A stretch of DNA of 64,000 bases, taken from contig CM059432.1 in the NCBI GenBank assembly GCA_030390025.1, forward strand, positions 78,928,001-78,992,000. The letters are read 5' to 3'. A program made the translations under genes and the position numbers. Below are positions 1 through 56,324 of this stretch, piece after piece. The notes beneath the pieces are model-generated. The model did no database searches. It was not told where the DNA came from and saw only the letters and a list, made by a program, of their open reading frames with translations. Every line of letters starts with the position of its first letter. Positions within the stretch are counted from its first letter, which is position 1. This stretch comes from Squalus acanthias (Eukaryota).

Positions 1-115
1 ATGTGGTTATACAAATGAGGTATTCTTGAGCAGTTGGACTCTGTTCAACTGAAGTGGAGTTTTGAATCAATTGCCAGTATAATCTCCGGAGCCATGTCCA
101 AATTATTTCGAACCA

Positions 116-745
116 GGGGGCGATTTTAATCCTACCCACCCGGCAGGAACCAGGCAGATGGGCAGTTAAAATGCTCCACACTACTTACCTGTTGGAAAGC
201 CGCTTGATCACGCTGACCATGATTTTACTCAGCCTTCTGGACAGGTAGTTAAGCCGCCCACCCAAAATCGGCATGGTCCTTATCTTGATTCTTTTTTCCC
301 CCCTTATCCTGCCCTTCTGGGAACATTCTAATATGTAGATTAGAGTCCAATGACATAATCTGGCCCTGACTATGATTTTAACTCAGGTCTGAGCAGGGAA
401 GTCACCATGGCCTTCCCTCCAGGCTGGAATGAGTCGAGACCTGATGAGAAGATGAAGAGGTCTAAACAGGTAGGCTTTTTACTTTCCTTTGTGGTGCCAG
501 AAGGAGCAGGAGTGTTCCTCCAGGCCCCACAAGAAAAGTCACAGCCTCTTCTGCCTTTCCTACCGCGAAACCCTCCTGGATCCCCCTTCCCCACACCTAA
601 TTTCTGGAGGCCAGACCGGCGGAATGTTAATGAGGCCCGGGAGTTAAAATACCCCGGGCCTGTTTTCTGCTGCAATCGATGAATTTCTAACTCACCCCAC
701 CGCCCACCCACTCAAAACCCGCCTGGAGTTAAAATTGGGGCTTAG
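116..745. mobile_element. Degenerate non-autonomous DNA transposon (Harbinger-type MITE-like)
   Basis: GC-rich island bounded by weak inverted ends (GGGGCGATTTTAA near 117; TTAAAATTGGGGC near 729-741) with repeated (G)TTAAAAT motifs; no clear target site duplication (TSD). Confidence 0.35.
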
Positions 746-914
746 TTATTTATTCTGCTTACTTTCTGTTGCCATGTAACTTGTTCTACTTCACTATACA
801 ATTTTAGCTGTGCCCTGGAATTTCTATTACCAAATTTTGCTTTTTCGCTTAATCTTCCCAAGCCCACAAAACTCATAACTTTCATTACTGTAGACCCAGT
901 TGACCACCATTGTA

Positions 915-1597
915 GAATTTTTTTTTTAATTCATTCACATGATGTGGGCGTCGCTGGCAAGGCCAGCATTTATTGCCCATCCCTAATTGCCCTTGAGAAG
1001 GTGGTGGTGAGCTGCCTTCTTGAACCGCTGCAGTCCGTGTGGTGAAGGTACTCCCACAGTGCTGTTAGGGAGGGAGTTCCAGGATTTTGACCCAGCGACG
1101 ATGAAGGAATGGTGATATAGTCAGGAGGTGTGTGACTTGGAGGGGAACTTGGAGGTGGTGGAGTTCCCAAGCACTTGCTGCCCTTCTAGGTGGTAGAGGT
1201 TACGGGTTTGGGAGGTGCTGTCGAAGAAGCCTTGGTGAGATGCTGCAGTGCATCCTGTAGATGGTACACACTGCAGCCATGGTACGCCAGTGGTGGAGGG
1301 AGTGAATGTTTAAGGTGGTGGATGGGGTGCCAATCAAGCGGGCTGCTTTGTCCTGCATGGTGTCGAGCTTCTTGAGTCTTGTTGGAGCGGTACTCATCCA
1401 GGCAAGTGGAGAGTATTCCATCACACTCCTGATGTGTACCTTGTAGATGGTGGAAAGGCTTTGGGGAGTCAGAAGGAGGTGAGACACTCGCCACAGAATA
1501 CTCAGCCTCTGACCTGCTCTTGTATGGCTGGTCCAGTTAAGTTTCTGGTCAATGGTGACCCCCAGGATGTTGATGTTGGGGAATTTGGCGATGGTAG
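915..1597 (-). mobile_element. CR1-clade (Zenon-like) LINE, 3' fragment
   Basis: Minus-strand ORF ...VMEYSPLAWMSTAPTRLKKLDTMQDKAARLIG... (RT C-terminus); 3' tail ...GCCAGCGACGCCCACATC...TGAATGAATT-A(n) shared with copies at 20403 and 58810-60943. Confidence 0.85.
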
Positions 1598-1867
1598 TTT
1601 GGTTGAATTAAAGCATAAATTGTCATCTTAGCAGTATACTGATTATTATATAGTTCTGCTCACAGTTTAACCTTTAAATTGATGGCCATAGCACTTGCTG
1701 CAGTAACTTGGAGAGGCTCTTTTCATGCAGCAATAAAAAAGTTATCAGTACTGTGGCAGATGTTACTGAACTAGAAATTTCTCTGTACATAGTTTTTTGG
1801 GTAGGGGTTGAAGAGAAATTTGGTAACGGTAGCTGAATGTCATTATTTCTGTCCCTTTGAAAAGTTT

Positions 1868-2052
1868 GAGGGTGATCTTGACTTTGTGCAATAGTGTAAA
1901 ACGGGTAGAGCAAATCAGCAGCCCATTTTACATCTCTTCCGATATTTATTTCCATTGACTTCAATGGAAAAAGAAATTGAGTGAGATGTAAAACGGGCTG
2001 CCGATTCGCTATCACCTATTTTACACTATCGCACAAGGTCGAAATCACTCCC
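1868..2052. mobile_element. Fold-back (fully palindromic) MITE
   Basis: Arms are reverse complements over ~90 bp (GAGGGTGATCTTGACTTTGTGCAATAGTGTAAAA / TTTTACACTATCGCACAAGGTCGAAATCACTCCC), centred on CCATTGACTTCAATGG at ~1952-1967. Confidence 0.8.
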
Positions 2053-2984
2053 AGTGTGTCTTAAAGGGTATGCAGTGAGTTAGAATACTGCACTTTCATC
2101 TCTGGAACATGGTAATAAATGTATTTCAAACAGATTAGACAAAAATAACATCTCTCTGATGTCTGTTGGGCCCCTAAGTCAGGGATGTCCGACCTGTTGG
2201 AGCCGGTACCAAATACTCGTGTCAAAACCAGTGAATGAGCTTTATGATTACGCAGAAGAGCAAGCCCCATTACACCAAAATGTGGAATGACACACACACA
2301 GAAATCAAGAAACAAAAATCCACATCCCCAACACTGAAAAGCACGGGCCCTATACCACAGAAATTCCAAACCCACAAACACAAAATAATTGAAGTCAACC
2401 CCCTTCCCACTGTCCTCACCCCCATCCTTCTGTGCCGCCACCACCATCCTTCCACCTCCTTCTTCTGCCTCAAAGTTTAAAAACTGGAATGATTCAAAGA
2501 TTTACATTTCCAGACAGGAAGACTAATTGGTCTAAATCAAGGACCAACCTTTTTTTGACCTCCAGGCTCAGGAAATTTAAAGGGCTGTGGCTGAGCTGTT
2601 CATCCAGCCTGAACTTTTTCTCATATTAAACACAAAAAGCCAATTTCAAATACAGTTAGTTGCAGCTTCCAATGAAACCGACCATAGTTGAAACCAGCTG
2701 TGTGTATAAGAAGTGTGGGCTAGATGAAAGGTGCTCACTGGCTGGATCTGGCCCACGAGCTGCCTGTTGGACACTGCCACACTGTGAATTTCATCTAATT
2801 GAATCTCAACCCAATTGAAAATGAACAGGAGTCTGCAGTACAGAATAGGCCCTGATGTTTGTCAATAGGCTCAAAACTGAAATAATAACAAACTAGGTTC
2901 TTTAATTTGCCTCTGAGACAAATGTTGCCATTATTACAGCACAAATATTTGTTAAAACATTCCTTCATATGTGACTTCTTCCAG

Positions 2985-3147
2985 GTGGTGGCAGCATGCG
3001 ATTACCATCCCCATTGGTCAGATGAGCTGGTACTTTGCCAAGGTGATGTTATCCAAGTGCTGTACAAAGATGATGAGGTGTGGTGGTTTGGCCGCTTGCA
3101 GAATGGGCAACAGGGATACTTCCCATCCACCTATGTCAGTAAACACA
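2985..3147 (+). CDS. vxn: vexin SH3-domain exon (internal; phase 0 start, phase 1 end)
   Basis: Acceptor cttcttccag|GTG and donor CACA|gtaagt; 163 nt encoding VVAACDYHPHWSDELVLCQGDVIQVLYKDDEVWWFGRLQNGQQGYFPSTYVSKH, a canonical SH3 (DY..., DEL, WW, GYFP..YV). Assigned to vxn because it is on the same strand upstream of the vxn terminal exon. Confidence 0.8.
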
Positions 3148-3548
3148 GTAAGTGCTGGGATTCAGATCACATTTTCCCAAATGTGAGCCAAACAGCCTAT
3201 GAAATGAGGAAGTCTTCAGATCCATTATATGTCATAGTTTATCATGTCAACCTTTGAGTGTCAAAAACATCATTCTTCTTTAAGGGAGTGTTTGCTAAAT
3301 CTAATTCTGTTTTGTCAGCAAATATATGACTTGATAACATGAGTCGTTTTGTTGTAAGCTGCACCATTCACTAGAACCTACACTCACAAACTGTCTCTTT
3401 CTGGGAACAGTTGGGCATTTGTTAGTGGACTAAGCAAGAGGCCTCTGCTATTGTGCCACATTGGGCACAGATGGGTATTGAAATACCTGTGGCTGTGAAT
3501 GATAATCTGATTGACTAGAGAAGAGATAATTTTCTTCCATGAAGCCAG

Positions 3549-3830
3549 CTCTCCCAATGGCTCAGTTGGTAAAGTTAGGTCAGAATGTCCCTGAACTAAA
3601 AACAGAAAATGCTGGAAATACTCAGCAGGTCAGGCAGTATCTGTGGAGAGAGAAACAGAGTTAATGTTTCAGGTCGATGACCTTTCGCCAGAATGTCCCT
3701 TGTTTGATTCTCAACCTGTGCTGAGTTAGTTGATCTCAGCCAGGATGGCAGTAAGGTATTAGATCTGGCTTCAGCATTCCTGGGCTAAGGAGGATGAAAA
3801 GTAATCAGCCAGGGTTCCTGGGCGATGAAT
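3549..3830 (+). mobile_element. LF-SINE-like tRNA-derived SINE, interrupted by a Penelope-like fragment
   Basis: A-box TGGCTCAGTTGG; body CTGTGCTGAGTTAGTTGATCTCAGCCAGG...CCTGGGCTAAGGAGG...AATCAGCCAGGGTTCCT resembles the LF-SINE core as recalled. Confidence 0.6.
3593..3692 (-). mobile_element. Penelope-like element terminal fragment with a degenerate hammerhead core
   Basis: Flanked by the 12-bp direct repeat CAGAATGTCCCT (3581-3592, 3689-3700); minus strand reads CTGGCGA-AGGTC-ATC-GACCT-GAAAC. Confidence 0.65.
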
Positions 3831-4453
3831 TACCCTTGGCAAAGCAGGAAATTGTAAACCTGGCCGGTTTAAATTAAAAAAAAATCTTTAACCAACACAG
3901 CTGGCTCACTGATCCTGTGATAAAATGCTGCAGTAAAATCCCACTCACCCACCCCGATTAAAGTGGGCATTCCAGTTACACCAAAAATGGCACAGTGCCT
4001 GCCTGCAATAAGCTAATGTTCTGACCCTGGGATTTAGGATAGGGTTGGGGCACATCCATGTAGTGGCTGGAAGTTCTGTCCTACCCTAGATCTATCCCAA
4101 AAAGCCTCCTCAGGAATTTGTTGGCTAATCTCTTCCCTCTCCTCCCCATCCCTCCCTCAGATAGTTTCTCCTCCTCCGATGATCCAGGCAAGAATACCAA
4201 AACACATCCCTCAGGGTGAAGCCTAGGTGCATTCGGACCGTTATCTAATTTACTATTTTTGCTTAAGTCCAGTATTTTACATTGCAACTTTTACAAACGC
4301 TCCCAACAATTACAATTTTGAAGAACCCTCGTCCCATGCACTTCTTTATTCTGAAATTCTGGAAAGAATTGAATGAACAAATTGAGGATTCTGAACTATA
4401 ACCATATAATTCTCTTAAATATGGGAACAAATTTTCCTTTGTTTTGTTCATAG

Positions 4454-4590
4454 GGGAAACTAATGAGAAAATTAAATATGTGAACGATGGAAAAAGCGCT
4501 GCCAAGGTAACAGACAACAATCAACCCATGGGGTTACCCTTATTTGAGCCAGGCAGATATAACAAAGTAAAGAGATCATCAATGTTTGAG
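4454..4590 (+). CDS. vxn: Probable vexin internal exon (alternative donor possible at 4506)
   Basis: Pyrimidine tract ttttcctttgttttgttcatag|; phase-1 start joins the SH3 exon in frame (RETNEKIKYVNDGKSAAK|VTDNNQPMGLPLFEPGRYNKVKRSSMFE); donors AAG|gtaaca (4506) and GAG|gtatgt (4590), both phase 0. Confidence 0.5.
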
Positions 4591-5226
4591 GTATGTCACA
4601 TGTTCTGAATCCTACTGGATAAGCAAGGTGTGTAAATGTTTACTGCTAGCTATCATAGTATCAAAAAAGATAATAAGACCAAAAATGAAATGGAAAACCA
4701 GTGCAAAACTGAGCAAATTTGTAATGGGCTCCTCAGCTTCATTTGAAAGTATTTAAATATCAATGGTTTACACACACACAATTCTTTGCCATTGTTCCTG
4801 ACCCAGGTCCTGCTATGCGCTGCTAAAATGGAGTGAAACCAAGTTTGTAACATTATATGGAGGAAGGAAGGAGAGGTGACACTGATGTCTCTTTGATCCT
4901 GTGCGTTCTGGTTATAGTCACTTAACAATTCCATGCAGTCAGTGGAACACACACTTAAGGAAAAAAATGTATGGACTCGATTTTATCCAAATTACAAATG
5001 CATCCAGAATTTTTCACATCAGACATTAAGCTGCTTTTTTGTTAGATGTTTCTAGCAAAGGATTATTTTCTAGACATTTACATGTAAACTTTGGGACTGG
5101 GCAAATGGAAAACAATGTGTTTTTTCCAATCCTGTACATTCCTATTTACTTTCCAGTGCAAAATGTACACTGGACAAACATTTACAATTTTTTCCCACTT
5201 TTTCTTTTTTTCTGCCCATTTTCCTT

Positions 5227-6668
5227 GGAGTGCCTGAGAGAGGTTGCAGAGCAGATTTACTAGAATGGCACCAGGGATGAGGGACTTCAGTTATGTGGCA
5301 AGTCTAGAGAAACTGGAATTGTTCTCCTTAGAGCAGAGAAGATTATGGGGAGATTTAATAGAGATGTTCAAAATTATGAGGAGTTTTAATAGAGTAAATA
5401 AGGAGAAATTGTTTCCATGGGTGGGTCGGTAACCAGGGACACAGATTTAAGATAATTAGCAAAAGAACCAAAGGAAAGATGAGATTTTATTTTTACGCAG
5501 CGAGTTGTTATGATCTCGACCCCTCCACGGTGTCTAAATTGTCAGACTGCTTGTCCGACATACAGTTCTGGATGAGCAAAAATGTTCTCCCATTAAATAT
5601 TGGGAAGACCAAAGCCATTGTTTTCGGTCCCCGCCGCAAACTCCGTTCCCTAGCCACTGACTCCATCCCTCTCCCTAACATCTGTCTGAGGCTGAACCAC
5701 ACTGTTCACAACCTTGGTACCATATTTGACCCTGAAATGAGCTTCCGACCACATATCCGCAGCATAACAAAGACCGCCTACTTCCACCTCCGTAACATCG
5801 CCCGTCTCCACCCTTGCCTCAGCACATCCGCTGCTGAAACACTCATCCATGCCTTTGTTACCTCTAGACTTGACTATTCCAATGCATTCCTGGCTGGCCT
5901 CCCACAATCCACCCTACGCAAACTTGAGGTCATCCAAAACTCAGCTGCCCGTGTCCTAATCCGCACCAGGTCCCGTTTGCCCATCACCCCTGTGCTCGCT
6001 GACCTACATTGGCTCCCGGTTAAGCAGCGCCTCGATTTCAAAATTCTCATCCTTGTTTTCAAATCCCTCCATGGCCTCGCCCCTTCCTATCTCCGTAATT
6101 TCCTTCAGCCCCACAAACCCCCTGAGATATCTGCGCTCCTCTAATTCTGCCCTCTTGAGCATCCCTGATTATAATCGCTCAACCTTTGGAGGTCGTGCCT
6201 TCTGTTGCCTAGGCCCTAAGCTCTGGAATTCCCTGCCTAAACCTTTGCGCCTCTCTACCTCTCTTTCCTCCTTTAAGACGCTCCTTAAAACCTACCTCTT
6301 TGACCAAGCTTTTGGTCACCTGCCCTAATTTATCCTTATGTGGATCGGTGTCAAATTGTTTGTCTTAAAATACTCCTGTGCAGCACCGTGGGACATTTTA
6401 CTATGTTAAAGGTGCTATATAAATACAAGTTGTTGTTGTTGTTGTTGATGATCTGGAATGCACATCCTAAAAAGGATTACTACATTAAAGGCGCTATATA
6501 AATGTAAGTTGTTGTTGTTGGAAGCAAACTTTCAAAAGGGAATTGGATATATACTTGAAAAGGAAAAATTTACAGGGGAGTTGGACTAATTGGTTAGTTC
6601 ATTCAAAGAGCCAGCACAGGCACAATGGGCCAAATGGCCTCCTTCTGTGCTGTAAGATTCTATGATTT
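5227..6668 (+). mobile_element. CR1 (HER1-like) LINE 3' end, split by L2 insertions
   Basis: ORF ...LEKLELFSLEQRRLWGDLIEMFKIM...; tail GGCCTCCTTCTGTGCTGTAAGATTCTATGATT; interrupted at 5517-6447 and again by a tiny L2 tail at ~6477-6519. Confidence 0.85.
5517..6447 (+). mobile_element. L2 LINE, 5'-truncated
   Basis: RT C-terminal ORF (...HAFVTSRLDYSN...HWLPVKQR...), tail GGTGCTATATAAATACAA(GTT)n, 7-bp TSD ATGATCT (5510-5516, 6448-6454). Confidence 0.9.
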
Positions 6669-6689
6669 TTCTGAAGGCGATGGCTCATA

Positions 6690-6875
6690 CTGCAGTATGA
6701 TTCTATGGGCACAGACAGCCTTTCGGTGCCTCACTGAAATCCCCATTCTTCATGTGAGATCCATGTCAGTGTGAGTGAACAGACTATTCTACCAGTAGTC
6801 ACTGGCATCTACACATGCACACTTTCTAGTACTAGACAGAATACAGGTTGGCAATCTGGTGCAGGAATCCTCTTA
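6690..6875 (-). mobile_element. LF-SINE-like fragment
   Basis: CCATTCTTCATGTGAG...CAGTGTGAGTG...CTATT...ACACATGCACACTTTC...GCAGGAATCC aligns by eye with the copies at 13150 and 52290. Confidence 0.45.
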
Positions 6876-7427
6876 TCTTTGATGGCTCCACACTTAGTCC
6901 TTCTTCATATATCTACATTCTTGGGCTCACTAGCTTGTATATTCCAATGTGTTCCACTCAATTTTGGGGCAGCAATCAGGCACAAGAAGCGACAATTAGG
7001 AAGGGGATCCATTATACCAGATCCCCACTCACTTTAGTGCTGCCTGAATTTCCATCATTTCCAGCGGATGACAGAAGCCCCACCCACTTTTGGGTAAATG
7101 AAGCAGTAAGGATGTGGGGACATTATAAGCCCTTTTCCACTCATTTCCACCTAATTTCTGCTTTATCTTAATCATGCCACTATAAAATTGGCATCTAGAG
7201 TTGCTAGATGCTACCTTGATGGGTTTAAAGGACAAGCCTATTCAGTTACTGATGTTAAAAACTTACTATTGCATTATTTTTGTTAGGATATTTTGGTTAT
7301 TTTGCTGTTGCGCCTACTTTGCCAGCTTCTTTTCTGCTATTTGATGAGGTGTGGCTATTTGCCCCCATTTCAGATAGAACCTAATGGTTCCCCTTTGGGA
7401 ATGTCTCTCTACTTTGCTTCTTGAAAG

Positions 7428-7542
7428 AAGAGGAGGAGCAACAGAGGCTGCCCACCGATACGTCACACCAGAGTATCCGGGCTTCATTTGACGAGGGGCC
7501 GTGTCTACGGAGGCTTTGCTTTATGGAGTCACGCCACATGCT
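7428..7542 (+). CDS. vxn: Candidate vexin internal exon (reading frame unresolved)
   Basis: Pyrimidine tract tctctctactttgcttcttgaaag| and donor CT|gtaagc; two frames are open (KRRSNRGCPP...RVYGGFALWSHATC or EEEQQRLPTD...RRLCFMESRHM); CpG-rich unique sequence. Confidence 0.4.
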
Positions 7543-7759
7543 GTAAGCGCCCCTGCAGCTCACCTTCCACTGTATGCACTACTCTGCAGTGGTTTGTAAA
7601 GGTCACCATGGGCATTTCTAAAGGGGTCCAGCACATGTTCCCCCAGAAAATGTTGAATATATTGACATTAAAAATTGTGTATTCTGGTTCGTTTTAGAAC
7701 ACTTTTCGCTTCACATTTGATAGCCTTTTAATTTAAAAAGTTAAAAGAAAAAATAAATG

Positions 7760-7942
7760 GGATAAATTTTCCAGTTGCATGCTCCCAACCCGGAGTCTTG
7801 TCTGCCGAGACAGAATAGAGGGAAATCACATGAGCAGCCTAAGCTTTTCCGTCCATTAATTTTACTGAAGATAAATCGTGGGCTTTGTGTGAGCGATTTC
7901 CCAACATGAGGTCCCAGGAGCGCATAATGGGAAAATTTATCC
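7760..7942. mobile_element. Fold-back MITE
   Basis: Perfect 13-bp terminal inverted repeat (TIR) GGATAAATTTTCC (7760-7772) / GGAAAATTTATCC (7930-7942) with degenerate internal symmetry. Confidence 0.7.
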
Positions 7943-8289
7943 TGTTAAATTTATCCATATTTAACAGATCGACCATCTAATCTCTTCTGTAAATTTGCCT
8001 GAACAGTCACTCTCCGCTCCCCCACCCCTTTCACAGGAGCACTCTCCTTCCCTCACTCAGTGCTGGCCCCAGCACCAGCTTTTACCTGACTGTCGTTTCA
8101 CCTCAAGAGTGACTGTGTGCCCCGCAGTGTGAGTAGAAATTCAATACGTTTGTTTACAACTCCTTTTGCTTGCTTCCAGCTGCTACTTCACTTGCAGCAA
8201 AGAAAGTGGTCAGGATGGAAATTCCTAGATTTGGAGGAGGAAGAATAGTTCTTGAGGAGACAAAAAAGGGTAGATGTAAAGGTACACAT

Positions 8290-8710
8290 CAGGCATCATA
8301 TATGTGCCCATCTTTACCTCGGAGGGGCTTGCATTTACCAATCTAAACAGTCCTTTCTAAGCAAGTCAAAGGAGATTTCACAAGGGAGATGTCACAGAGC
8401 TATCCCATCTCCTACAGCCTAACCTGCAGACAATTTCTAACACATGGATAGCTCTTTTCAAGGGTGTGAAGGTGACCACTGCATTATACTTCATCCTTCC
8501 AAGCCACAATCAGTGACATTTGTCCAAATCAGTTATCCTGCTGTCTACAGACCCATCAAGCCAGTGACTGAGGTCTTATTTGCAAAGGGTAACATATTCA
8601 TCACTCTGCCCATGAAACGGAGGCATCAGCTCAACAGGTCACAGAACTTTTCCTGAATGGCAGGCTTTCCAAGAGTGCAGAGCATCAGAGATGGACCCAT
8701 GTGACCATCT
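8290..8710 (+). pseudogene. Highly degraded PIF/Harbinger transposase fragment
   Basis: Frameshifted pieces DVTELSHLLQPNLQ, VKVTTAL, SFQATISDIC, ISYPAVYRPIKPVTEVLFAKGNIFITLPM and MAGFPRVQSIRDG match, in order, the transposase at 40534-41706 (VTELCHLLQPELQ, VKVTVAL, SFKASTGNIA, ISQFAVHCCIREVTYALY...YISFPM, IAGFPMVQGAIDC). Confidence 0.75.
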
Positions 8711-9315
8711 GGCCACCAAGTTCCTGTTCCTCCTCTGTACGGCCACTTGTTCCTCCTTACCTGTGCATTCTGCCTCAACTGGTGCTACCTCCTCAAGCTC
8801 ACTGTGTTGCTGCTTACAAACTTCAGTTAGAGGAATGCAGTGTGCAGCCTTGCTGTGCCACTGGTTGGTCTGACAGGCTGCTCTCGAGGACTACAATAAC
8901 AGATAGGGAACAAATATTAGAAGGCTGACTCCCCAGTGTACCTTCAAGTAGAGCTTGCATTGAAAATAATGTGAGTGAAAAGGGGCACAAGACATAAGAA
9001 CAGGATGGTAATAGGCATGAGCTTGAGGGAGGCCTGCTGTATTAACTTTTCTTAGTCCCTCCATGCTCTAATTTGCCAGGATAAGCAAGGTGGTCTCCTT
9101 CAAGGGATTCAAGACCCTGTAATCTGTCAGCCTTCCTTCAGTTGATACCTGTTCCCTTGAATTTTATGTCATCTTGTTGTACAAGCAGAGAAGTAACTTT
9201 GAGATATAAGCTAAAGGAACACATGCACAGTGACTGAAATGTGCCCAACCTGCAGGCTAACCTGTGTGTCAGTAGGTGATCATGCATCGTTCAGCTAGGT
9301 TGTGTCACAAGGCAG

Positions 9316-9948
9316 AAGGTTTTAACTTTCGGGCGGCTGACCAATGGAGTGCACCAACCGCTCGCTCATTCCTGCCAGTGGGAGGCCCGAGCCATTTGGA
9401 GGGCCAGGTCTCAGCTCCATGCCACTGGAGAGTAGCACACCCTGAACGGACATTCTGCTGCAACTCGCTGGCTCAAGGAACGCAATATTAGGCGGCTCAG
9501 ACACAGAGTCAGCCCACAGAGGTCCTAGGAAGCGAGCCAGAACCAGCAGCAACTTGCAATATTTTTGTCGAGCACTCCTGCTCGACAAAAATATAATTTG
9601 CAAAAAGTTTTGGGGCCGTTTTTGGAGAGGCCAGCAGCGATCATTTAAGGACCATAGGTTAGACCACTTAACGCCAGGTCACAAGGTTGCACCATGCGTG
9701 TCATACACTCCACCCTATTTGTCCCCATAAATTACAATTGGGGTCCTAACTACATTATAGGACCTCAATTTGCATAGCAAAGAGGCCTACCACCTGAAAC
9801 AGGCAGACGCTCTGGCTGCCGAAGAGAAGACCCCTTTGAAAATAGTGGTTGCTGGGGCATCGCCATTAACGGGCCAGGAAGTCGACCGACCCATTTTGTG
9901 GCTGTTACCACCCCGTTAATGCCAAGTTTGGATAGTTAAAATCAGCCC
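9316..9948. mobile_element. Degenerate Harbinger-type terminal segment/MITE
   Basis: GC-rich island ending GTTAAAATCAGCCCC, similar to other Harbinger-like ends in the window; may be the end of the element containing the 8290-8710 relic. Confidence 0.35.
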
Positions 9949-10541
9949 CATGGTGTAAGGATGTAATTGTGTATTAAATCTTGAATGTGTACCCTGCTGA
10001 GGTATTGGTTTGCATGAGATACAATAAAAGAACAGTAAGGTTGAGTGAGGGCTTGCCGTGGTGAGCAGTAAATGTGGAACAAGTTTACAGGTAACATTCT
10101 GTTGCACATTCTTATGCCTTTGAGCTGGTAAATGGCACCATTCAGCGGTCTTACCTTGTCACATTTCTTGAGGTGCACTGTCTTCTAATGCCTCTAATGT
10201 ATGAAATCCCTCTTTTGCTTTTGAAGTAGCTAATATGTTTGAAAGAAGATAATTATGATTAGTCATTTTTAGCTCTTTATGAGTTGGTGTCCCATATTTG
10301 TTAATGGCAATTCATTCACATCTGTTTTGCTCCAAGAAGTATTTGAATATATAACTTTGTTACAAATGGATGCTTTATCAAAGCAATATCCAACAAAAAT
10401 AAAACCCAGAAGAGTTAGCAGGATAGGTGTCAAATTACAATCTTTGGAGGGGATTCTTGTTGGGAAAATCTAATCCAAAAATTGAAAACATCCCCCATTA
10501 ACAGAATTAACGATTTGTGTTTCACTCCTAAAAACCCGAGA

Positions 10542-10764
10542 AGGGTAGAATTATGCAAATCCTGCTCCCAACACAAGCTTCTTTCAAAGGGAACGTGGAT
10601 GGGTGAATCAAGCACGGAGTTCAGCTCACTCCTGACACTCCTGAACTTCCGATGATCAAGTTTAAACAGCAGATTGGGCGCCCTGACTCCTCATGCAATT
10701 CTCCGATCCACGTTCCTGTCCAGCGACGTTTTGACTCAGGAATAGGACTTGCAACATTTAACCT
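10542..10764. mobile_element. Fold-back MITE
   Basis: Inverted ends AGGGTAGAATTATGCAAATCCTGCTCC / GGAATAGGACTTGCAACATTTAACCT, plus the inner inverted pair GGAACGTGGAT (10590-10600) / ATCCACGTTCC (10706-10716), both centred on 10653. Confidence 0.7.
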
Positions 10765-11331
10765 CATAATTTGTTAGAACTATTTTAAAAGAAAATCCCA
10801 GAAACCAAATCTAAATCTATTTTAAATCAGCGAAAGGCACTTCCGAAACAAAAAGATTGTCAGTAAATGCAGTATTGGCACTTGGCAACAGAGGTCACTA
10901 TGTGTTCTATTTATTATTGCTGGCTATTCCAACCACTAGGAGCTCAGTACAGACTGGATTAGAAGTCATACCATGTAATGGAAATAAAAACCGAAATGAA
11001 AAATATGCTGAATGCTGCAGTCAAAGGAAACCCTTAAAGTACTTGAAACATCAAATGAATTATTTTCGAAGTGTGACTTCCAAAGTAAAATATTTCCTGT
11101 ACATTTTTGTTCCTTTGAAGATGCATTTACAAAGCAGGTGTATCCTGTAACTGAGACAGTAAAGCATTGCCAATGTAAGCTTGCAATCAGATAAGATACA
11201 ATTTATGGGTACAAAAGAAGTATTTAAAAAGGAAGAGTATCTTATGAAAACCTTAGCTTTCATAGAAATTGGAGAATGAAATGCACCAGAAATGTTCTTT
11301 TAAGATTTCTGACACAGCTTGTTTTTCTAAG

Positions 11332-11420
11332 AAATCCCAGGCGTTGCCGGTTATGCAAGCTTCACTCAGACCAGGTGTGATCCCTGAGCCAACTACAGAT
11401 GTCAGCAGTTTTGCAGAAGG
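11332..11420 (+). CDS. vxn: vexin penultimate exon
   Basis: Acceptor gtttttctaag| and donor GG|gtaagt; KSQALPVMQASLRPGVIPEPTTDVSSFAE(G) resembles VXN KSLIPPVPRISVK...EKG as recalled; the phase-2 end joins the terminal exon in frame. Confidence 0.65.
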
Positions 11421-11964
11421 GTAAGTGCTTCTCCCGCAACCCGCTGAAGCCCAGTCTTCTTTTGAACACAGCTGTCACTAATCTGAGGAAAGCCTGTTGC
11501 CCGGCGACGGCCTTCTGTCAGACACTCGGCGGGACATCAGCGGAACGGCAGGTGGCACAAGTCAGAGGTCAGCTGTTTATTACATGGCAGTGTCAACTGC
11601 AATTATCCTTTTTGTACAACGAACCCTCATTTAACACAGTCTGCCTACAATTTCTTTCCAAAACACATGTCTGCTCCTTTGTGTTTAGACGTAGGGCCTA
11701 AGTACTAGGTTTTATTGAACAGTCAAATGTTTGTGTTGAAAATAGGACAATCCTGTGAAGCTACATTTTTAAAATAAGGTTAATTATTTAACCCTTCAAG
11801 TACTGAATTTCTTTTCAAAGCAAAGCGACCTATGCAGCTTTCCAAATATGTTGTTAATGAGAATATTTGGGTAAACCCTCCTTTATATTTATCCCCTTCT
11901 TTCTTTGCCTTTCTGCAGCTGAGAGGGTGGGTGCAAACCCTGTTCCTAGACTGAGAGAGATTCT

Positions 11965-12267
11965 CTTCTCTTCTTAGGCAGTCCCTCGGAACCGAGGATG
12001 ACTTGCTTCCACATTAAAAATGAGTTCTCAGGTGACTGATGAGTCCAATGTGGGACCTACAGTCTCTGTCACAGGTGGGGCAGATGGTGATTGAAGGAGC
12101 AGGTGGGTGGGGTGCTTGGGTTGACGTGTGCTGTTTGCGCTTGGCTTCCGCTTGCTCCCGGCGAAGAGACGCGAGGTGTTCGGCGCCTTCCCGGATGCTT
12201 CTCCTCCACTTTGTGCGGTCTTGGGCCAAGGATTCCCAGGTGTCAGTGGGGATGTTGCACTTTTTCA
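11965..12267 (-). mobile_element. RTE-clade LINE 3' fragment
   Basis: ORF ...WESLAQDRTKWR...CPTCDRDCRSHIGLISHLRTH* (RTE C-terminal zinc finger), GAAGA-type tail, 11-bp TSD AGAGAGATTCT (11954-11964, 12268-12278). Confidence 0.9.
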
Positions 12268-13149
12268 AGAGAGATTCTGTCGGTTCAATATCACTCCCAT
12301 GATTAGCCAGTAGGAGGCATGTTTTAAAAAGAGGGGAACGGTCAGTGTCAGTATCCTGCCCCCTTCTAAGTGAGAGGGAGTGCTTTATCACACAGTACTC
12401 CATATAGCAACCTGGCTAAGAAATTATGAAACTGAGTGTTATGGTTTAAATGGTTGTTTAGCTAAATTATGGGAATAATTTGATGTATTTGTGCTCCCAA
12501 CAGGTAAAGCTCTGTACTGGGAACATAAATTCATATAATTACGTTCTATACATATAATGCCATGGGAGCACTGAAATATATTTAAGCACTGCATGTGGCC
12601 TCCTTTAGAGGCAAGTTTTACGCTAGTCCTGTGAATGAAACATTTTGGAAGTCAAAACAAACTGCTGTTTGTACACTTTGTGGTGAAAGTCTACTTTCTA
12701 CAATAATTATAAAAATACTACTCTAAGGCAGGTAGGATTATGGGACAAGTGGTGCTGGGACAACAGTCAAATCGTCATTTGCTTGAGCCACAAAATCTTA
12801 AAACTCATTTCATTTCAGAAATTCCTGAATGTACAAGCAAGAACATTTGTACAGTAGAGTCACAATCATTAGTACGTAAATATTTGGGATAACTCAAATT
12901 TTAACAGATGAATCAAAAAATCAGAGGTAATCTTTTATTGAAAATATGAGGTATTATTTGATTGCAAATCAGTCATGTAGCTGGTGAATTATCTTGTAAT
13001 CTCCACTTTTAAAAATATTTTTTGTAACTAAGATTTTGAGATTTATTGAAGTTTTGCCATATATTAATGCATCTGTCAACACAGATTTGTGCATCATTTG
13101 AACAACTTCAGAACATTAATTCAGTCCTTAAATAGGATCATTTTCCATG

Positions 13150-13500
13150 CCAATTTTCTCCCTGCCCTCCAGTCCTGAAGATATTGACTTCTAGCTGTTC
13201 ACCCTCCACTATCTCATCCAAGTAGCAATTATTCATGAGTGAATCTTGACAGTGAAGCAAGTTATTCAGATGCAAGGGCATCAAAGCCAAGACCAATACT
13301 ACCCTTACTCAGTATCTATACTGATGTACATCCAGCAGGGGCTGCTGGATAGCAATTAGGAGCAGGAATCTTGGTTGATTTTTCCACTCCCTAACCCAGG
13401 GGCACTGAGGCCATTTTTTGTGCCTCTATTGCCATTTTAGCTGAGAATAAATAACTTAGGTCAGGCCAGGCATCACTTAAACCTGTATGGCTCAGTTTAA
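13150..13500 (-). mobile_element. LF-SINE-like SINE
   Basis: CCAGCAGGGGCTGCTGGATAGCAATTAGGAGCAGGAATCTTGGTTGATTTTTCC...CCCAGGGGCACTGAGGCC is the reverse complement of the LF-SINE-like core also seen at 3720-3830. Confidence 0.65.
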
Positions 13501-13518
13501 ATGTATATGATGGCACTA

Positions 13519-15540
13519 GATGGTGAATCCCAGGATATTGACACACTAACAATGAGGGAATGCCAGTATATGTCCAAGTCAGGATGGTTTGTGACTTGGA
13601 AGGGAATGGTCTTTCTATGGTATTGCTGCTATTCTCCTTCTTGGTGGTAGAGCTTGCAGGACAGGTATGTGTGTTGAAGTAACCTTGATGAGTTGCTGCA
13701 GTGCATCCTGTGATGGTGATGGATGAGATGGATATTGAGTCCAGTGGCAGGGCACCAATCAAACAAATTACTTTATCCTGGATGGTGTGGAGCTTCTTGA
13801 GTGTTGTTGCAGCTACACCCATCTAGGTGAGTGGTGAGGATTCCATCACATTCCTGACTTGAACTTCAAGATGGTGGAAAGGCTTTGAGGGGTTATGAGA
13901 TGTTGCAGAGTACCCAGCCTCTGCCCTGTTCTTGTAGTCACAGTGTTGACATGGCTGGTCCAGTTCAGCTTCTGGTCATTCATGATCCCCAAGATGTTGA
14001 TGGTAGGGGACTCAGCAATGGTGGTGCCATTGATGGTCAGAGGTAGATGGCTGGGCTTTCTCTTGCTCAAGATGGTCTCTGTCAACCACAACCATCTTCT
14101 CTTGTGTCACGTTAGTCTCCAGCCACTGGAGAGTTTTCCCCATGACTCTCATTGACATTAGTTTTCACTCTCATCAAAGTCACAAATGATATCATTTGTG
14201 TCTGTGACAAAGGTAAACTATCCTTCCTCGTCCTTCTTGACTTGTCTGCAGCCTTTGACACGGTTGACCACTCCATCCTTCTCCAACGCCTCTCCACCGT
14301 CATCCAGCTGGGTGGGACTGCACTCGCCTGGTTCCATTCTTATCTATCTAATCGTAGCCAGAGAATCACCTGCAATGGCTTCTCTTCCCGCTCCCGCATC
14401 GTTACCTCTGGTGTCCTCCAAGGATCTATCCTTGGCCCCCTCCTATTTCTCATCTACATGCTACCCCTTGGCAACATCATCCGAAAACACAGCGTCAGTT
14501 TCCACATGTACGCTGACAACACCCAGATCTACCTCACTACCACTTTTCTCAACCCCTCCATGGTCTCTAAATTGTCAGACTGCTTGTCCGACATCCAGTT
14601 CTGGATGAGCAGAAATTTTCTCCAATTAAATATTGGGAAGACCGAAGCCATTGTTTTCGGTCCCCGCCACAAACTCCGTTCCCTAGCCACTGACTCCATT
14701 CCTCTCCCTAACATCTGTCTGAGGCTGAACCAGACCGTTCGCAACCTTGGTGCCATATTTGACCCTGAAATGAGCTTTCGACCACATATCCACGGCATAA
14801 CTAAGACCGTCTATTTCCACCTCCGTAACATCGCCCGTCTCCGCCCCTGCCTCAGCTCACCCGCTGCTGAAACCCTCATCCATGCCTTTGTTACCTCTAG
14901 ACTTGACTATTCCAACACACTCTTGGCTGGCCTCCTACATTCTACCCTACGTAAACTTGAGGTCATCCAAAACTCAGCTGCCTGTGTCCTAACCCGCACC
15001 AAGTCCCATTCACCCATCACCCCTGTGCTTGCTGACCTACATTGGCTCCCGGGTAAGCAACACCTCGATTTTAAAATTTTCATCCTTGTTTTCAATACCC
15101 TCCATGGCCTCACCCCTCCCTATCTCTGTAATCTCCTTCAGCCCCACAACTCCCCGAGATATCTGCACTCCTCTAATTCTGCCCTCTTGATCATCCCTGA
15201 TTATAATCACTCAACCATTGGTGGCCATGCCTTCTGTTGCCTAGGCCCTAAGCTCTGGAATTCCCTGCCTAAACCTCTCTGCCTCTCTACCTCTTTCCTC
15301 CTTAAAGACCTACCTCTTTGACCAAGCTTTTGGTCACCTGCCCTAATTTCTCCTTATGTGGCTCGGTGTCAAAATTTTTGTCTTATAATACTCCTGTGAA
15401 GCATCTTGGAACGTTTTACTACATTAAAGGCGCTATATAAATACAAGTTGTTGTTGTTTCCTACGGCTCTTTGGTACCATACTCAGTCAAATTCCGCTTT
15501 AATGTCAAGGGCAGCTACTCTCATCTCAATTCAATTCTTG
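13519..15540 (-). mobile_element. Old Zenon-like CR1-clade LINE, split by an L2 at 14167-15457
   Basis: Diverged homology to 20520-21600 at 13519-14166, resuming at ~15460-15540 after the L2 tail. Confidence 0.7.
14167..15457 (+). mobile_element. L2 LINE, 5'-truncated, long RT ORF
   Basis: 389-aa ORF with LLDLSAAFDTVDH, GVLQGSILGPLLF and YADN(D)TQ motifs; (GTT)n tail. Confidence 0.92.
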
Positions 15541-15668
15541 CATCTATATCTGTTACTCACTAACTAAATTAGGTGAATAAGGAGTTTTTTCAAATGGGAT
15601 TTGAAGGTTAAGTGAATAAAGCACAAGAGAATTGCAAAGCCCATGTTTGACAAATAATTTTTTTTCAG

Positions 15669-15855
15669 GAAACAGAGGATGAGTGAGAAAAACATCAGAA
15701 AGTATCCAGAACCTGCTCTTGAATCAGATGTCAGTGTACCACTGACAGGGAACATATCACACACAACTCCCAGCATTCTGAGAAGAATCATCATGAAAAA
15801 CAGGAAGAAGGCACCGTGTTCTGGGACAACAAACAATGCCTTTGAGCCAGATTGA
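15669..15855 (+). CDS. vxn: vexin terminal coding exon
   Basis: Acceptor ttttttttcag|; KQRMSEKNIRKYPEPALESDVSVPLTGNISHTTPSILRRIIMKNRKKAPCSGTTNNAFEPD* matches the VXN/C8orf46 C-terminus as recalled (...EYPALPQGAEASLPLTG...PGILRKMWTRHKKKSEYVGATNSAFEAD*); convergent neighbour is mybl1, as in human 8q13. Confidence 0.88.
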
Positions 15856-16091
15856 GGAACCTGCTTTAGCTTTGTGCAGGAACAATGAGAAGAATGTCAT
15901 GTCATTTTATTTTGAGTAAAGATTTGAGTTGGGCTGTTTAACTGTCTGGGGTAAGCTGTACCATCCCAAGGAGTCAATCACTCAGCAAGTTTTGTGAGTT
16001 ACTAAAAATATGTTTTAAGTTTTTAAGCTTGTTGTCAAAGTCATCAGTGCTAGAATTTGGACTGTGATGTTGGGGCCATTTTGATATGTAG

Positions 16092-16144
16092 AATAAATGT
16101 GCTTCACATTATTAAGCATAAAAGTTGCTGTTTTTTGGAATAAA
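16092..16144 (+). promoter_or_regulatory. Candidate vxn polyadenylation signals
   Basis: AATAAA at 16092-16097 and 16139-16144, ~240-290 nt after the stop codon. Confidence 0.5.
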
Positions 16145-16621
16145 AATGAAAAATGCTGGAAAATGTATGAAGAATGGAAATGAGTCAAGAGAAAAGATGG
16201 ATTAACATTTAAGATGTAGACTCTTTGTCAGTACAGATTTTCTACACCTGCAACTTTAACTTCTGCTAGAAATTTCACCGCCTAAGGGGGCAGAATTCCA
16301 CCAGAATTGTGGTGCAGGGGTCGTAATTTGCAACAAAACCCTATTTGTCGCTCTTAAACACCGCAGGAAATCCCAAATGGTAGGAGCAGGTGCTTTTTCT
16401 TCCCATCCCAAGCACATTATGGCAGCACTTTGGGGGTGTTTCTGGGGGTGTTCTCAGACTACCCTGGGAATTATGGCAGACATGCCCCTGATAAACCCAG
16501 TGAACTTATATCAGCTGAGAGTGAATTGGGAGGTTTTGCTACATTAAAGACGCTATATAAATGCAAGTTGCTGTTAGAAGTCTTGAAGATCTACTAAATG
16601 TTTTCAGATGTATTTCTTTTT

Positions 16622-17276
16622 AAGGGGTGTACATACACAAGTCTTTGAAGGTGGCAGGACAAGTTGAGAAGGCTGTTAAAAAGGAATATGGGATCCTTAG
16701 CTTTATAAGTAGAGTCATAGAGTAAAAAATCAAGGAAGTTATGCAAAACCTTTATAAAACACTGATTAGACATCACACTTTAGGAAGGATGTAGAGGAGA
16801 TTTATTAGAATGGTACCAGGGATGAAAGACCAATTACCCAGACAGACTAGAAAAACTGGGGTTATTCTCCTTAGAGCAGAGAAGGTTAAGGGGAGATTTG
16901 ACAGAGGTGTTCAAAATCATGAAGGGTTTTGACAGAGTAAATAAGGAGAAACTGTTTCCAGTGGCAGAAGGGTCAGCAACCAGAGGACACAGTTTTAGGA
17001 TAATTGGCAAAAGAACCAGAGGCGACATCAGGAAACATTTTTTAATGCAGTGAGTTATTATGATCTGGAATGCACTGCCTGAAAGGGTGATGGAAGTCGA
17101 TTCAACAGTAACTTTCAAAAGGGAATTGGATAAGTAATTGGAGGGGAAAAGTCTGCAGAGCTATGAGGAAAGAGCAGGGGAGTGGGACTAATTGTATGGC
17201 TCTTTCAAAGAGCCAGCACAGGCTCGATGGGCCGAATGGCCTCCTTCTGTGCTGTATCATTCTTTGATTCTATGAG
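16622..17276 (+). mobile_element. CR1 (HER1-like) LINE 3' fragment
   Basis: Homologous to 5227-6668 and 50700-51381; ends GGCCTCCTTCTGTGCTGTATCATTCTTTGATTCTATGA. Confidence 0.85.
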
Positions 17277-17281
17277 TCTAT

Positions 17282-18362
17282 GGCCTAGAAATTCGAGTAG
17301 GCTGGAAACCTGCCGGTAATAGCGCCAGCTAAGGCTAACGGACGCTGCAGAAAGAGCTCTGACGCACCGGTATTTTGGTGCTGCCTGCTAATTTACATCA
17401 GCAGAGCGGAGAATCTGTGGTACAACGCTCTCTTTCCGGCGCTAAGCACAGCAGGAGGCTGAAGGTCGTGTCTGTTACCACTTAGATTTAAGGAGAAAAA
17501 GGAACAAACGAGTCAACCTGTAGGCCATGTACGGAACAGTTGCCGTATTTATTACGGCAATTTACCTGCCATCCACTCACCAATCCGTCAATGTTACAGT
17601 ATTGCACTCAGCTCTTGTGGAGAAAGCTCTTGTTGTTTAAAGCGCATCAAAGTGACACAAGCAAAGCTCTGGAACCTACCTATGGAAGTGTGTTATCTTT
17701 TAAATCAGCTCAGGCTCTGGCTCGCAAAATTTCGACAGAGCAAAAAATGGTTCAGCAACTAGAGAGTCTATCGACTGCGCCAGGAAAGTCTGTGGTTTGA
17801 TTGATCTTCATCGAATGTGATGAATTATTCAGTGGCGATGATAATTTATAATGACCTGTCGCCATTGGCTGTTCACTTCATATAATGATGACCGTTTTGG
17901 TTTCAGTCACAAACTGTTATGGATAAGTCTACTCTCGTCTCCCCACCTGCAATCATCTGTGTACCATTATACACAGAGGTGCTTCTACTAGTCTTCATCC
18001 TCAGAACTAGATCCTTTCCATCAAATTAAACACCCACACCCACGTGTACCTGAGAGCAGGTATAGCATGTGTATGATGCTCAAGCGCTGTCAGCGGCTGT
18101 ACGCACAGGCGTGCTTTGGAGAGGGCAGTAAGAGGAGTGGCGAGCTCCAAAATGGATGAGCGTGTGTCAATTCGGCGTTGTACACTGATTGACGTCACGC
18201 TCCTGCTAATTTTAAAACTTTCCACAAGCACAGGCAATGGCAGCGCTACTAACCTGCTGAAAATGGTGGCCCACCAGAAGTGGGCAGAAGTGAGACAGCC
18301 GCCATTTTTTTTACTGAAACTGGCCTTAACGGCCAGCGCAAAACACCTCCAACTTCTAGGCC
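17282..18362. mobile_element. Non-autonomous Harbinger-type element, 1081 bp
   Basis: TIR GGCCTAGAAATT / AACTTCTAGGCC (11/12 match); 3-bp TSD TAT on both sides; CpG-rich subterminal regions. Confidence 0.75.
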
Positions 18363-19237
18363 TATAAGTTTATATATCGTATAGTAGTACATGTGTTACT
18401 AGTACAAAGCAAATCTCAAGCTCCTCATTATATCTGCAAGAGTTAGAGTCAAACTGAAGCTGTAACCAAAGTGACCTAAATGGAAGCATTTTGGGTTAAC
18501 TTGCATCCCCTGAACTTTGCTCATTAATATTATCTTAGGTTTGAGTTGGTCTATCCCACAAATTATCCTGTCGCAGCATGTGTACTCGCATTGTCATAGC
18601 AGGTAAGCAGCTGGATGCACCAACAAAGATACCTGTTTCACTTCTTCCTTCATACTTTTACAGTTTTAGCCCTTAATGCGTCACAGACAAGTTCATTTGT
18701 CTGTTTGCAATCAAGCTCAGGGGCAGAGGAGGTCCAAATATATTAAAAATTGCAATTAGAATGTTGTGCCCATTCTTGTGTGCACTACTTTAGAAATGAT
18801 GTCAAGGCCAAGGAGAGGGGACAGAAGATATTCACTAAAATTTTCCAGAGAAAAGAAGCTTTAGTTATGACATAGCAGAGAAAAGGGGGCTCTTTTCATG
18901 AGAACAAGAGGTTAAGACAAGGGGGGCTAAATATGATAGCCCCCTGAAAATGGGTGCAGCGATTAACTCGCACCCATTGCTTCTGATGCAGGCAGCATGT
19001 AAACTTCATGCTGCCTGCTAATTGAAATGATTGCAGCATTGAGGAAGTGCTAAACACGCTGATGAGTGGCTGAGTGCCTCAGCAGCGGGCCCAAGTTCGT
19101 GCGAAGATAGCACCGCTTAAAGCTAGCCTGCTCTACTTAAAGACAGCCTTCACCTCTTAAATGGGAGGTGAATTCTGGCTGAAGCAAGTGCTGGAAGTGG
19201 CTGTGGAATAGAGTCTGACCTGCAAGAAGAGTGACTA

Positions 19238-56198: not shown

Positions 56199-56324
56199 TT
56201 ACAGGATCAGAGTCCTGCTTGTGTTGCTGCCATTATACGCATTCAGGTACCTCCGAGCCTGTTCAGTCATTATTAGCTGATCCTCCGTCTTCCCACAAGC
56301 TACTGCTTCCCATTCACTGCTCAT
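56199..56324 (-). CDS. mybl1: Myb-related protein A, terminal coding exon
   Basis: acacag|MSSEWEAVACGKTEDQLIMTEQARRYLNAYNGSNTSRTLIL*; GKTEDQLIMTEQARRYL matches the A-Myb C-terminus as recalled. Confidence 0.93.
   Translation of the reverse strand: MSSEWEAVACGKTEDQLIMTEQARRYLNAYNGSNTSRTLIL

What the first reader, a model, noticed from the sequence alone, without database searches (positions are those of the whole stretch)
2985..15855. Shark vexin carries an AHI1-type SH3 domain: vxn may be a cryptic ohnologue of AHI1 (jouberin)
Seen: a clean 163-nt SH3 exon on the same strand as, and upstream of, a VXN-type terminal exon, convergent with mybl1. Recalled knowledge: the canonical human VXN protein has no SH3. 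This SH3 (VVAACDY...SDEL...GDVIQVLYKDDEVWWFG...GQQGYFP) closely resembles the AHI1 SH3 (VVALYDY...SDEL...GDIIRVFFKDNEDWWYG...GQEGYFP). AHI1 lies tail-to-tail with MYB just as VXN does with MYBL1. Inference: vxn and AHI1 descend from one gene beside the ancestral Myb, and vxn kept the SH3 in sharks but lost it from the main human isoform. That would give a poorly understood neurogenesis gene a ciliary-protein ancestry.
Basis: partly seen in the sequence, partly recalled or inferred. Interest (0 to 1): 0.75.

Follow-up and report, generated by a model that had tools for sequence, protein, structure and literature searches.

The report
Vexin: truncated duplicate of AHI1's tail
This shark gene is vexin, a little-understood neurogenesis gene, and its exons show that vexin is a cut-down ancient copy of the back end of the ciliary Joubert-syndrome gene AHI1, whose SH3 domain is still intact in fishes but has decayed in land vertebrates.

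Summary
Exons 2985-3147, 4454-4590, 11332-11420 and 15669-15855 form one open frame of shark vexin, convergent with a Myb-type last exon (56324-56199). The SH3's best solved-structure hit is human AHI1. A teleost AHI1 locus has the same last four exons: same intron phases (0,1,0,2), an identical 163-nt SH3 exon and an 89-nt third exon. Vexin and fish/shark AHI1 also end in the same N-x-A-F-E-x-D motif (26 of 28 vexins, 101 of 121 AHI1, 0 of 108 other SH3 proteins). So vexin is the 3' end of AHI1 with a new N-terminus and no WD40 part, sitting beside A-Myb as AHI1 sits beside c-Myb. Two corrections: the intact SH3 is general to jawed fishes, not shark-specific; and tetrapods did not drop the exon, it decayed in place (Pfam's 'Vexin domain' is that remnant). 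Not shown: splicing in this species, the date of the duplication (SH3 tree inconclusive), human sequences, any ligand. No paper stating the paralogy turned up in my searches, but the main vexin paper could not be read. The scan's earlier notes held nothing on vexin or AHI1.

The parts
2985..3147 (+). vxn exon A: AHI1-type SH3 domain, 163 nt, phase 0-1
   Evidence: same length, phase and register as the AHI1 SH3 exon in L001 and L002
4454..4590 (+). vxn exon B: linker, 137 nt, phase 1-0 (AHI1 counterpart in L002 is 86 nt, phase 1-0; no significant sequence likeness)
   Evidence: matches sawshark vexin-like P0219
11332..11420 (+). vxn exon C: linker, 89 nt, phase 0-2 (AHI1 counterpart in L002 is also 89 nt, phase 0-2; no significant sequence likeness)
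15669..15855 (+). vxn terminal coding exon D: short helix + basic cluster + C-terminal N-x-A-F-E-x-D motif shared with fish/shark AHI1; stop 15853-15855
56199..56324 (-). terminal coding exon of a Myb-family gene (mybl1 by synteny), convergent with vxn
   Evidence: PMC5635590 passage on elephant-shark A-Myb flanked by C8orf46

Best explanation
Vexin is a 5'-truncated paralogue of AHI1 (jouberin), left by the duplication of the Myb-AHI1 block early in vertebrates (most likely a whole-genome duplication). The copy beside A-Myb lost the coiled-coil, C2-like and WD40 exons, gained a new conserved N-terminus of about 40 residues, and kept the last four AHI1 exons: SH3, two linkers, and the terminal exon with a basic stretch and an N-x-A-F-E-x-D end. 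SHOWN: the shared exon layout, SH3 kinship, shared end motif, the decay series. INFERRED, how it works: in sharks and other fishes vexin is a small adaptor with one folded domain, an SH3 with a remodelled pocket, between two short conserved docking peptides. In tetrapods the SH3 decayed in place while both ends stayed conserved, so vexin's neurogenic activity most likely rests on the ends: the basic helix for membrane/nuclear targeting and the N-x-x-F end as a ligand for a PTB-type domain (NUMB is my candidate, about 0.3).
For: (1) SH3 kinship: best of 322 PDB sequence hits is human jouberin 4esr, 56.7 bits, next single-stretch hit GRB2 48.4; exon A is 30-35/54 identical to 13 vertebrate AHI1 SH3s, 30/54 to an invertebrate-type AHI1, 21-27/54 to the 25 other SH3s kept; a vexin profile scores the 16 AHI1 rows printed at 73.5-93.8 bits in one stretch and the best non-vexin, non-AHI1 protein among the 150 listed at 52.5; for zebra-shark AHI1 that one stretch runs from the SH3 to the last residue. 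(2) Gene structure: teleost AHI1 locus L002 has exons of 163 (0-1), 86 (1-0), 89 (0-2) and 175 nt (2-stop) against 163, 137, 89 and 187 nt with the same phases here; L001 (second vertebrate AHI1) also has 163 nt, 0-1. (3) End motif N-x-[AGT]-[FY]-x-x-[DEG]: 26 of 28 vexins with a C-terminus, 101 of 121 AHI1 (120 teleost, 1 shark), 0 of 108 other SH3 proteins; terminal exons align better than 4987 of 5000 shuffles. (4) Tree: vexin + AHI1 apart from other SH3s at 93/82 and 92/86. (5) Synteny: convergent Myb last exon here; A-Myb is flanked by C8orf46 and SGK3, c-Myb by AHI1, and the Myb paralogues are ascribed to the 2R duplications (PMC5635590, passages and section 16). (6) Decay: Pfam SH3 above cut-off in the 5 fish vexins with that region that were scanned, in none of 6 tetrapod-type ones; the second Trp of the WW pair is kept in 27 of 30 fish rows and 0 of 6 tetrapod rows, yet all six align to exon A better than 2000 of 2000 shuffles; the mammal-type P0192 aligns in register and Pfam 'Vexin' PF15505 starts exactly there (residue 42). 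(7) AlphaFold: sturgeon vexin folds only residues about 39-93 confidently, as an SH3 (pLDDT about 95). (8) NUMB PTB binds N-x-x-F/Y motifs, one of them a G-x-x-N-x-A-F peptide of ALK (PMC6927325, passages).
Against: Exons B and C show no sequence likeness to their AHI1 counterparts (4003 and 2452 of 5000 shuffles score as high), and exon D none once its last 12 residues are removed (2927 of 5000): beyond the SH3 the case rests on intron phases, one equal exon length and an 11-residue motif whose pattern I wrote after seeing the data. The 54-column tree does not date the split: vexin + vertebrate AHI1 gets only 90/79 and 88/69, and holding all AHI1 together without vexin is not rejected (p-AU 0.41). 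No lamprey, hagfish or amphioxus sequence and only one invertebrate-type AHI1 were available; that one lacks the end motif. The AHI1 sample is nearly all teleost (120 of 320 hits listed). The vexin N-terminus has no match in AHI1 (best 0.8 bits). Splicing in this species was not seen directly. Human VXN and full-length tetrapod AHI1 were not examined. Nothing about ligands was tested; N-x-x-F is a short, common motif.
Confidence: 0.85

Rival explanations
1. Vexin is a partial duplicate of AHI1's 3' end, but from a local or segmental event: a tandem partial copy next to the ancestral Myb, followed by reciprocal loss after the genome duplications, or a later move beside A-Myb. Same ancestry, not an ohnologue.
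For: The SH3 tree cannot exclude a split before vertebrate and invertebrate AHI1 diverged (p-AU 0.41). No cyclostome or invertebrate chordate data were seen. The branching order of the Myb paralogues is itself unsettled (PMC5635590 section 16).
Against: One copy beside each of two Myb paralogues, on the side away from SGK, is most simply one block duplicated once. The end motif is in vexin and vertebrate AHI1 but not in the one invertebrate-type AHI1, which leans to a split inside chordates. All vexin-like rows I could name are from jawed vertebrates.
Confidence: 0.11
2. Only the SH3 exon was borrowed from AHI1 (exon shuffling or conversion) into an otherwise unrelated gene; the tail motif is convergent.
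For: Exons B and C, and exon D without its last 12 residues, show no significant likeness to AHI1; the N-terminus is unrelated; short linear motifs arise easily.
Against: A phase 0-1 exon is not symmetric, so it does not shuffle alone in frame; the next two intron phases, the 89-nt length, the basic stretch and the motif at the very end of the last exon all agree with AHI1, and the gene sits at the paralogous place.
Confidence: 0.03
3. The SH3 exon belongs to another gene or is a dead relic, and is not spliced into vexin in this shark.
For: No joint from 3147 to 4454 was displayed in the contigs laid, and the sawshark model P0219 starts inside exon B.
Against: Intact splice sites and one open frame over four exons; elephant-shark vexin-like XP_007894942.2 carries SH3 and tail in one protein, 60% identical over the whole spliced frame; so do sturgeon, paddlefish and gar vexins; the SH3 is 89% identical to the elephant-shark one.
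Confidence: 0.02

Closest known systems
Vexin (VXN / C8orf46 / sbt1), Pfam PF15505
   Same: This is its orthologue: 87% identity of exon A to elephant-shark C8orf46, 88.5% over exons B-D to sawshark vexin-like, same tail, same place beside a Myb gene.
   Different: Carries an intact SH3 where tetrapod vexins have a decayed one; PF15505, built on the decayed form, hits exon A only weakly (E 0.029, below cut-off).
AHI1 / jouberin (coiled coil, WD40 x7, C-terminal SH3; ciliary transition zone; Joubert syndrome)
   Same: SH3 sequence and fold (4esr ranks first, Z 12.4, rmsd 1.3 over 64 residues, but tied within 1 Z with other SH3s), last four exons and their phases, C-terminal motif of fish and shark AHI1.
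   Different: No WD40 or coiled-coil part (elephant-shark model has 46 residues before the SH3); new N-terminus; SH3 pocket changed (AHI1's Tyr at exon position 5 and Arg at 11 are replaced; Trp at 11 in 27 of 30 fish vexins).
Divergent, truncated ohnologues such as ROBO4 (PMC6389290, search listing only)
   Same: A vertebrate duplicate that shed domains and took a new role (title and start of abstract seen; the domain loss is recalled).
   Different: Here most of the parent protein is gone and the one domain kept later decayed, so mammalian sequences give no visible link.

Membership tests
Vexin (VXN/C8orf46 orthologues) | Closest relatives are proteins named vexin/C8orf46 across the coding exons | tested here: met
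Vexin (VXN/C8orf46 orthologues) | Position beside A-Myb | tested here: met
   Myb-type last exon 56324-56199; which Myb it is comes from PMC5635590
Vexin (VXN/C8orf46 orthologues) | Conserved N-terminal exons | not testable with these tools
   Not found in 1-2984; presumably upstream of the window; no genome held
AHI1/jouberin | AHI1-type SH3 in a 163-nt phase 0-1 exon | tested here: met
AHI1/jouberin | Downstream exon phases 1-0, 0-2, 2-stop and the C-terminal motif | tested here: met
   One AHI1 locus (L002) for the phases; 101 of 121 AHI1 proteins for the motif
AHI1/jouberin | Coiled coil and seven WD40 repeats before the SH3 | tested here: not met
   No hit of four AHI1 N-terminal parts in the window; full-length fish vexin models have 36-46 residues before the SH3. 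DNA upstream of the window was not seen.
AHI1/jouberin | Localisation at the ciliary base and role in cilia | not testable with these tools
   Needs cell experiments
Ohnologue pair (whole-genome duplication) | Copies lie in paralogous blocks beside other duplicated genes | tested here: met
   Window shows vxn-Myb; published synteny gives AHI1-cMyb, C8orf46-AMyb and SGK1/SGK3 links. Tail-to-tail orientation of AHI1 and MYB is recalled, not tested.
Ohnologue pair (whole-genome duplication) | Split older than the shark-bony fish split | tested here: met
   Both genes in cartilaginous and bony fishes; vexin SH3s form one side of a 100/100 branch
Ohnologue pair (whole-genome duplication) | Split younger than the vertebrate-invertebrate split | tested here: inconclusive
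   Support 90/79 and 88/69; alternative not rejected, p-AU 0.41; one outgroup only
Canonical PxxP-binding SH3 | Full aromatic pocket (ALYDY tyrosines, WW, Pro, final Tyr) and acidic RT loop | tested here: inconclusive
   Shark exon keeps the second Tyr, the acidic pair, WW, Pro and final Tyr but has Cys for the first Tyr; residue roles are from general SH3 knowledge; binding untested

The most novel reading that the evidence does not exclude
AHI1 and vexin split the ancestral protein's jobs: tetrapod vexin kept the ancestral C-terminal N-x-A-F-E-x-D docking motif and let the SH3 decay, while mammalian AHI1 kept WD40 and SH3 (and, from recall only, lost the motif). The motif would be a NUMB-type PTB ligand, giving vexin a direct handle on Notch-related neurogenesis and giving fish AHI1 a link that human AHI1 lacks; vexin would be a hidden relative of a Joubert gene acting in the same tissues (retina, brain).
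Probability: 0.25. Interest if true: 0.8.

Novelty: new variant of a known kind. Interest (0 to 1): 0.6.

Why it matters
Vexin is needed for neurogenesis in frog (Moore et al. 2018, known to me only through PMC7722677 and PMC11240604) and marks granulovacuolar bodies in Alzheimer neurons (PMC7882576), yet has no recognised domain or family. Tying it to AHI1 gives it an ancestry, explains Pfam's 'Vexin domain' as a decayed SH3 exon, and points to two short conserved ends as the working parts, which is directly testable. It also bears on AHI1: the part vexin kept is the part reported dispensable in people with SH3-removing truncations (PMC5270624 citing Elsayed et al. 2015). It is a clear case of an ancient duplicate that mammal-centred searches cannot see.

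Tried and rejected
RNA evidence: no RNA holder listed on record for 15600-16200 (19 runs, 13 guessed RNA). Contigs of 4 of those runs were laid on 1-17500: repeats swamped the joint table and no exon-exon joint was displayed; one contig in each of the 4 runs starts at 15668, at the exon D acceptor, a hint only. No genome is held for the window, so upstream exons could not be sought. Search for vexin exons 1-2 or WD40 exons inside the window: nothing. Profile comparison of post-SH3 tails: AHI1-tail profile (built from 99 tails pre-selected for the motif) scores 24 vexin tails at -1.3 to 13.9 bits against a best of 10.6 in 2400 shuffles and 6.9 in 108 other C-termini; weak and driven by the motif. 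AlphaFold of turtle vexin on a 16-row tetrapod alignment gave no confident fold (pLDDT 46); fits decay but a shallow alignment can do the same, so not counted. The Atlas gave a 136-member chordate SH3 cluster for sturgeon vexin and only Vexin-domain clusters at 0.9 or more for turtle vexin, and no AHI1 cluster was shown. Human AHI1 exon limits from variant names in papers: not found. L005 is not a convincing relative and was dropped. Tree rows left out: tetrapod vexins (decayed), all but 10 teleost AHI1 proteins, near-duplicate other SH3s; trees used LG+G4 without mixture.
Full report
What is in the window. Exon A, 2985-3147, is 163 nt between a canonical acceptor and GTAAGT and encodes an SH3 domain (Pfam SH3_1 E 5e-15). 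Using fish vexins as queries I found two further exons, B 4454-4590 and C 11332-11420, before the terminal exon D 15669-15855. All have AG/GT ends, the phases are 0-1, 1-0, 0-2, 2-stop, and together they give 576 nt with one terminal stop. The spliced frame is 88.5% identical to sawshark vexin-like over B-D and 60% identical over its whole length to elephant-shark vexin-like XP_007894942.2, which has the SH3 and the tail in one protein. The first two vexin exons are not in the window. On the minus strand, 56324-56199 is the last coding exon of a Myb gene, so the two genes converge over about 40 kb of mostly repeat DNA. Splicing in this species was not seen directly; it is inferred from splice sites, frame and other species' models.

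The SH3 is of AHI1 type. Human jouberin (4esr) is the best of 322 PDB sequence matches. Exon A is 30-35 of 54 identical to 13 vertebrate AHI1 SH3s, 30 of 54 to an invertebrate-type AHI1 and 21-27 of 54 to 25 other SH3s. A profile of seven fish vexins, run over 1.84 billion representatives, lists 150 proteins; rescored by single stretch, vexins come first, then AHI1 (73.5-93.8 bits for the 16 rows printed), then everything else at 52.5 or less. Trees of the 54 columns put vexin and AHI1 together against other SH3s at 93/82 and 92/86. An AlphaFold model of sturgeon vexin has one confident domain, the SH3, whose top structural match is 4esr, though tied within one Z unit with other SH3s.

The kinship runs to the stop codon. 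A metagenome scan returned 5 loci from 388 candidate stretches. L002 holds the 3' end of a teleost AHI1 gene: exons of 163, 86, 89 and 175 nt in phases 0-1, 1-0, 0-2, 2-stop, against 163, 137, 89 and 187 nt in the same phases here. L001, another vertebrate AHI1, also has a 163-nt 0-1 SH3 exon in the same register. Fish and shark AHI1 end like vexin: the pattern N-x-[AGT]-[FY]-x-x-[DEG] ends 26 of 28 vexins that have a C-terminus and lies in the last 25 residues of 101 of 121 AHI1 proteins (many misses are short isoforms) and of 0 of 108 other SH3 proteins; I wrote the pattern after seeing the tails. Against this: exons B and C, and D without its last 12 residues, are no more alike than shuffles, and the vexin N-terminus has no counterpart in AHI1. 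The invertebrate-type AHI1 (L003/L004) has no introns around the SH3 in the stretch held and lacks the end motif.

What happened to the SH3. It is intact in elephant shark, sturgeon, paddlefish, gar, coelacanth (partial model) and many teleosts. In newt, caecilian, gecko, turtle, bird and an unnamed mammal-type vexin (P0192) the same stretch is present and still aligns to exon A (0 of 2000 shuffles as good in each of 6), but none reaches a Pfam SH3 cut-off and the core Trp is gone in 6 of 6. Human VXN itself was not among my sequences.

Origin. [quoted passage not shown] One AHI1-derived gene beside each of two Myb paralogues is most simply one duplicated block. The split predates sharks versus bony fishes, since both have both genes. 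The upper bound is open: vexin plus vertebrate AHI1 gets 90/79 and 88/69, and the alternative is not rejected (p-AU 0.41); no cyclostome or amphioxus sequence was available.

How it most likely works (inference). Fish vexin looks like a small adaptor: a conserved N-terminal peptide, an SH3 whose pocket differs from AHI1's (Tyr at exon position 5 in 103 of 121 AHI1 but not among the five commonest residues of 30 fish vexins; Trp at position 11 in 27 of 30 vexins where AHI1 has Arg in 120 of 121), a disordered linker, a short helix with a basic cluster and the end motif. Since tetrapods keep both ends and not the SH3, the conserved function should sit in the ends. The NUMB PTB domain binds N-x-x-F/Y motifs, including an ALK peptide of similar make (PMC6927325, passages), which makes a PTB-type partner my lead, at about 0.3. 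Nothing on binding or cilia was tested.

What is known and what is new. The gene is known, and databases show the fish SH3; automatic pipelines have even named two short fish vexin-type proteins 'jouberin' or 'jouberin-like', and others after unrelated SH3 proteins. Searches for vexin+SH3, AHI1/MYBL1/paralog, C8orf46/vxn/SH3/Xenopus/sbt1, vexin/vxn/neurogenesis/C8orf46, AHI1 with VXN terms (none of 30 rows listed of 132 holds both), any vexin term (40 of 349 listed) and AHI1/ohnolog/Myb/WGD showed no paper stating the paralogy. I saw passages of PMC7722677, PMC11240604, PMC7882576, PMC3454386, PMC5270624 and PMC3048164, the rest as listings. The main vexin paper (Moore et al. 2018) is not held and, with its supplements, may mention the SH3 or AHI1; subscription journals and curated family databases were not searched. 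PMC5270624 cites people homozygous for SH3-removing AHI1 truncations without Joubert signs, the part that vexin retained. Earlier scan notes held nothing on vexin or AHI1.

Verdict. Real, well-supported and apparently undescribed link between two known genes: descent from AHI1's 3' end about 0.95, by block or genome duplication about 0.85, mechanism speculative. Interest 0.6.

Noticed in passing
window 40537-41508 (-), 38339-38590 (+), 19235-19996 (+): A DDE_Tnp_4 transposase-like frame (E 1e-32) and two Myb/SANT-like DNA-binding frames: pieces of Harbinger-type DNA transposons (family name from recall) between vxn and the Myb gene.
   Followed up: partly
window 14146-15318 (+), 30497-31144 (-), 46068-46868 (+): Reverse-transcriptase fragments of LINE-like repeats; a similar piece at 5398-6141 had no Pfam hit.
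   Followed up: partly
window 62569-62519 (-): A 51-nt open stretch with splice-like ends, upstream of the Myb last exon; candidate penultimate mybl1 exon, unverified.
   Followed up: no
AHI1 proteins P0013-P0130: 98 of 121 AHI1 SH3 domains (nearly all teleost) have Leu in place of the pocket Pro of the GYFP motif, while 28 of 30 fish vexins keep Pro: teleost AHI1 SH3 may itself have an altered ligand site.
   Followed up: no
P0107, P0109-P0112, P0114, P0116, P0118, P0123, P0126: Short teleost AHI1 isoform models stop right at the boundary matching vexin's exon B/C junction and so lack the end motif.
   Followed up: partly
P0141, P0205, P0176, P0259 versus P0008, P0137, P0139: Teleosts seem to hold at least two divergent vexin types (some named si:dkey-97a13.12 or jouberin-like), possibly from the teleost genome duplication.
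   Followed up: no
P0010, P0291: Sturgeon and bird gene models fuse ADHFE1 with vexin exons, agreeing with ADHFE1 lying just upstream of vxn on the same strand; likely annotation artefacts.
   Followed up: partly
L003, L004: Invertebrate-type AHI1 with WD40 repeats and SH3 and almost no introns in the stretch held; shares the SH3 and the following conserved linker with vertebrate AHI1 but not the end motif.
   Followed up: partly
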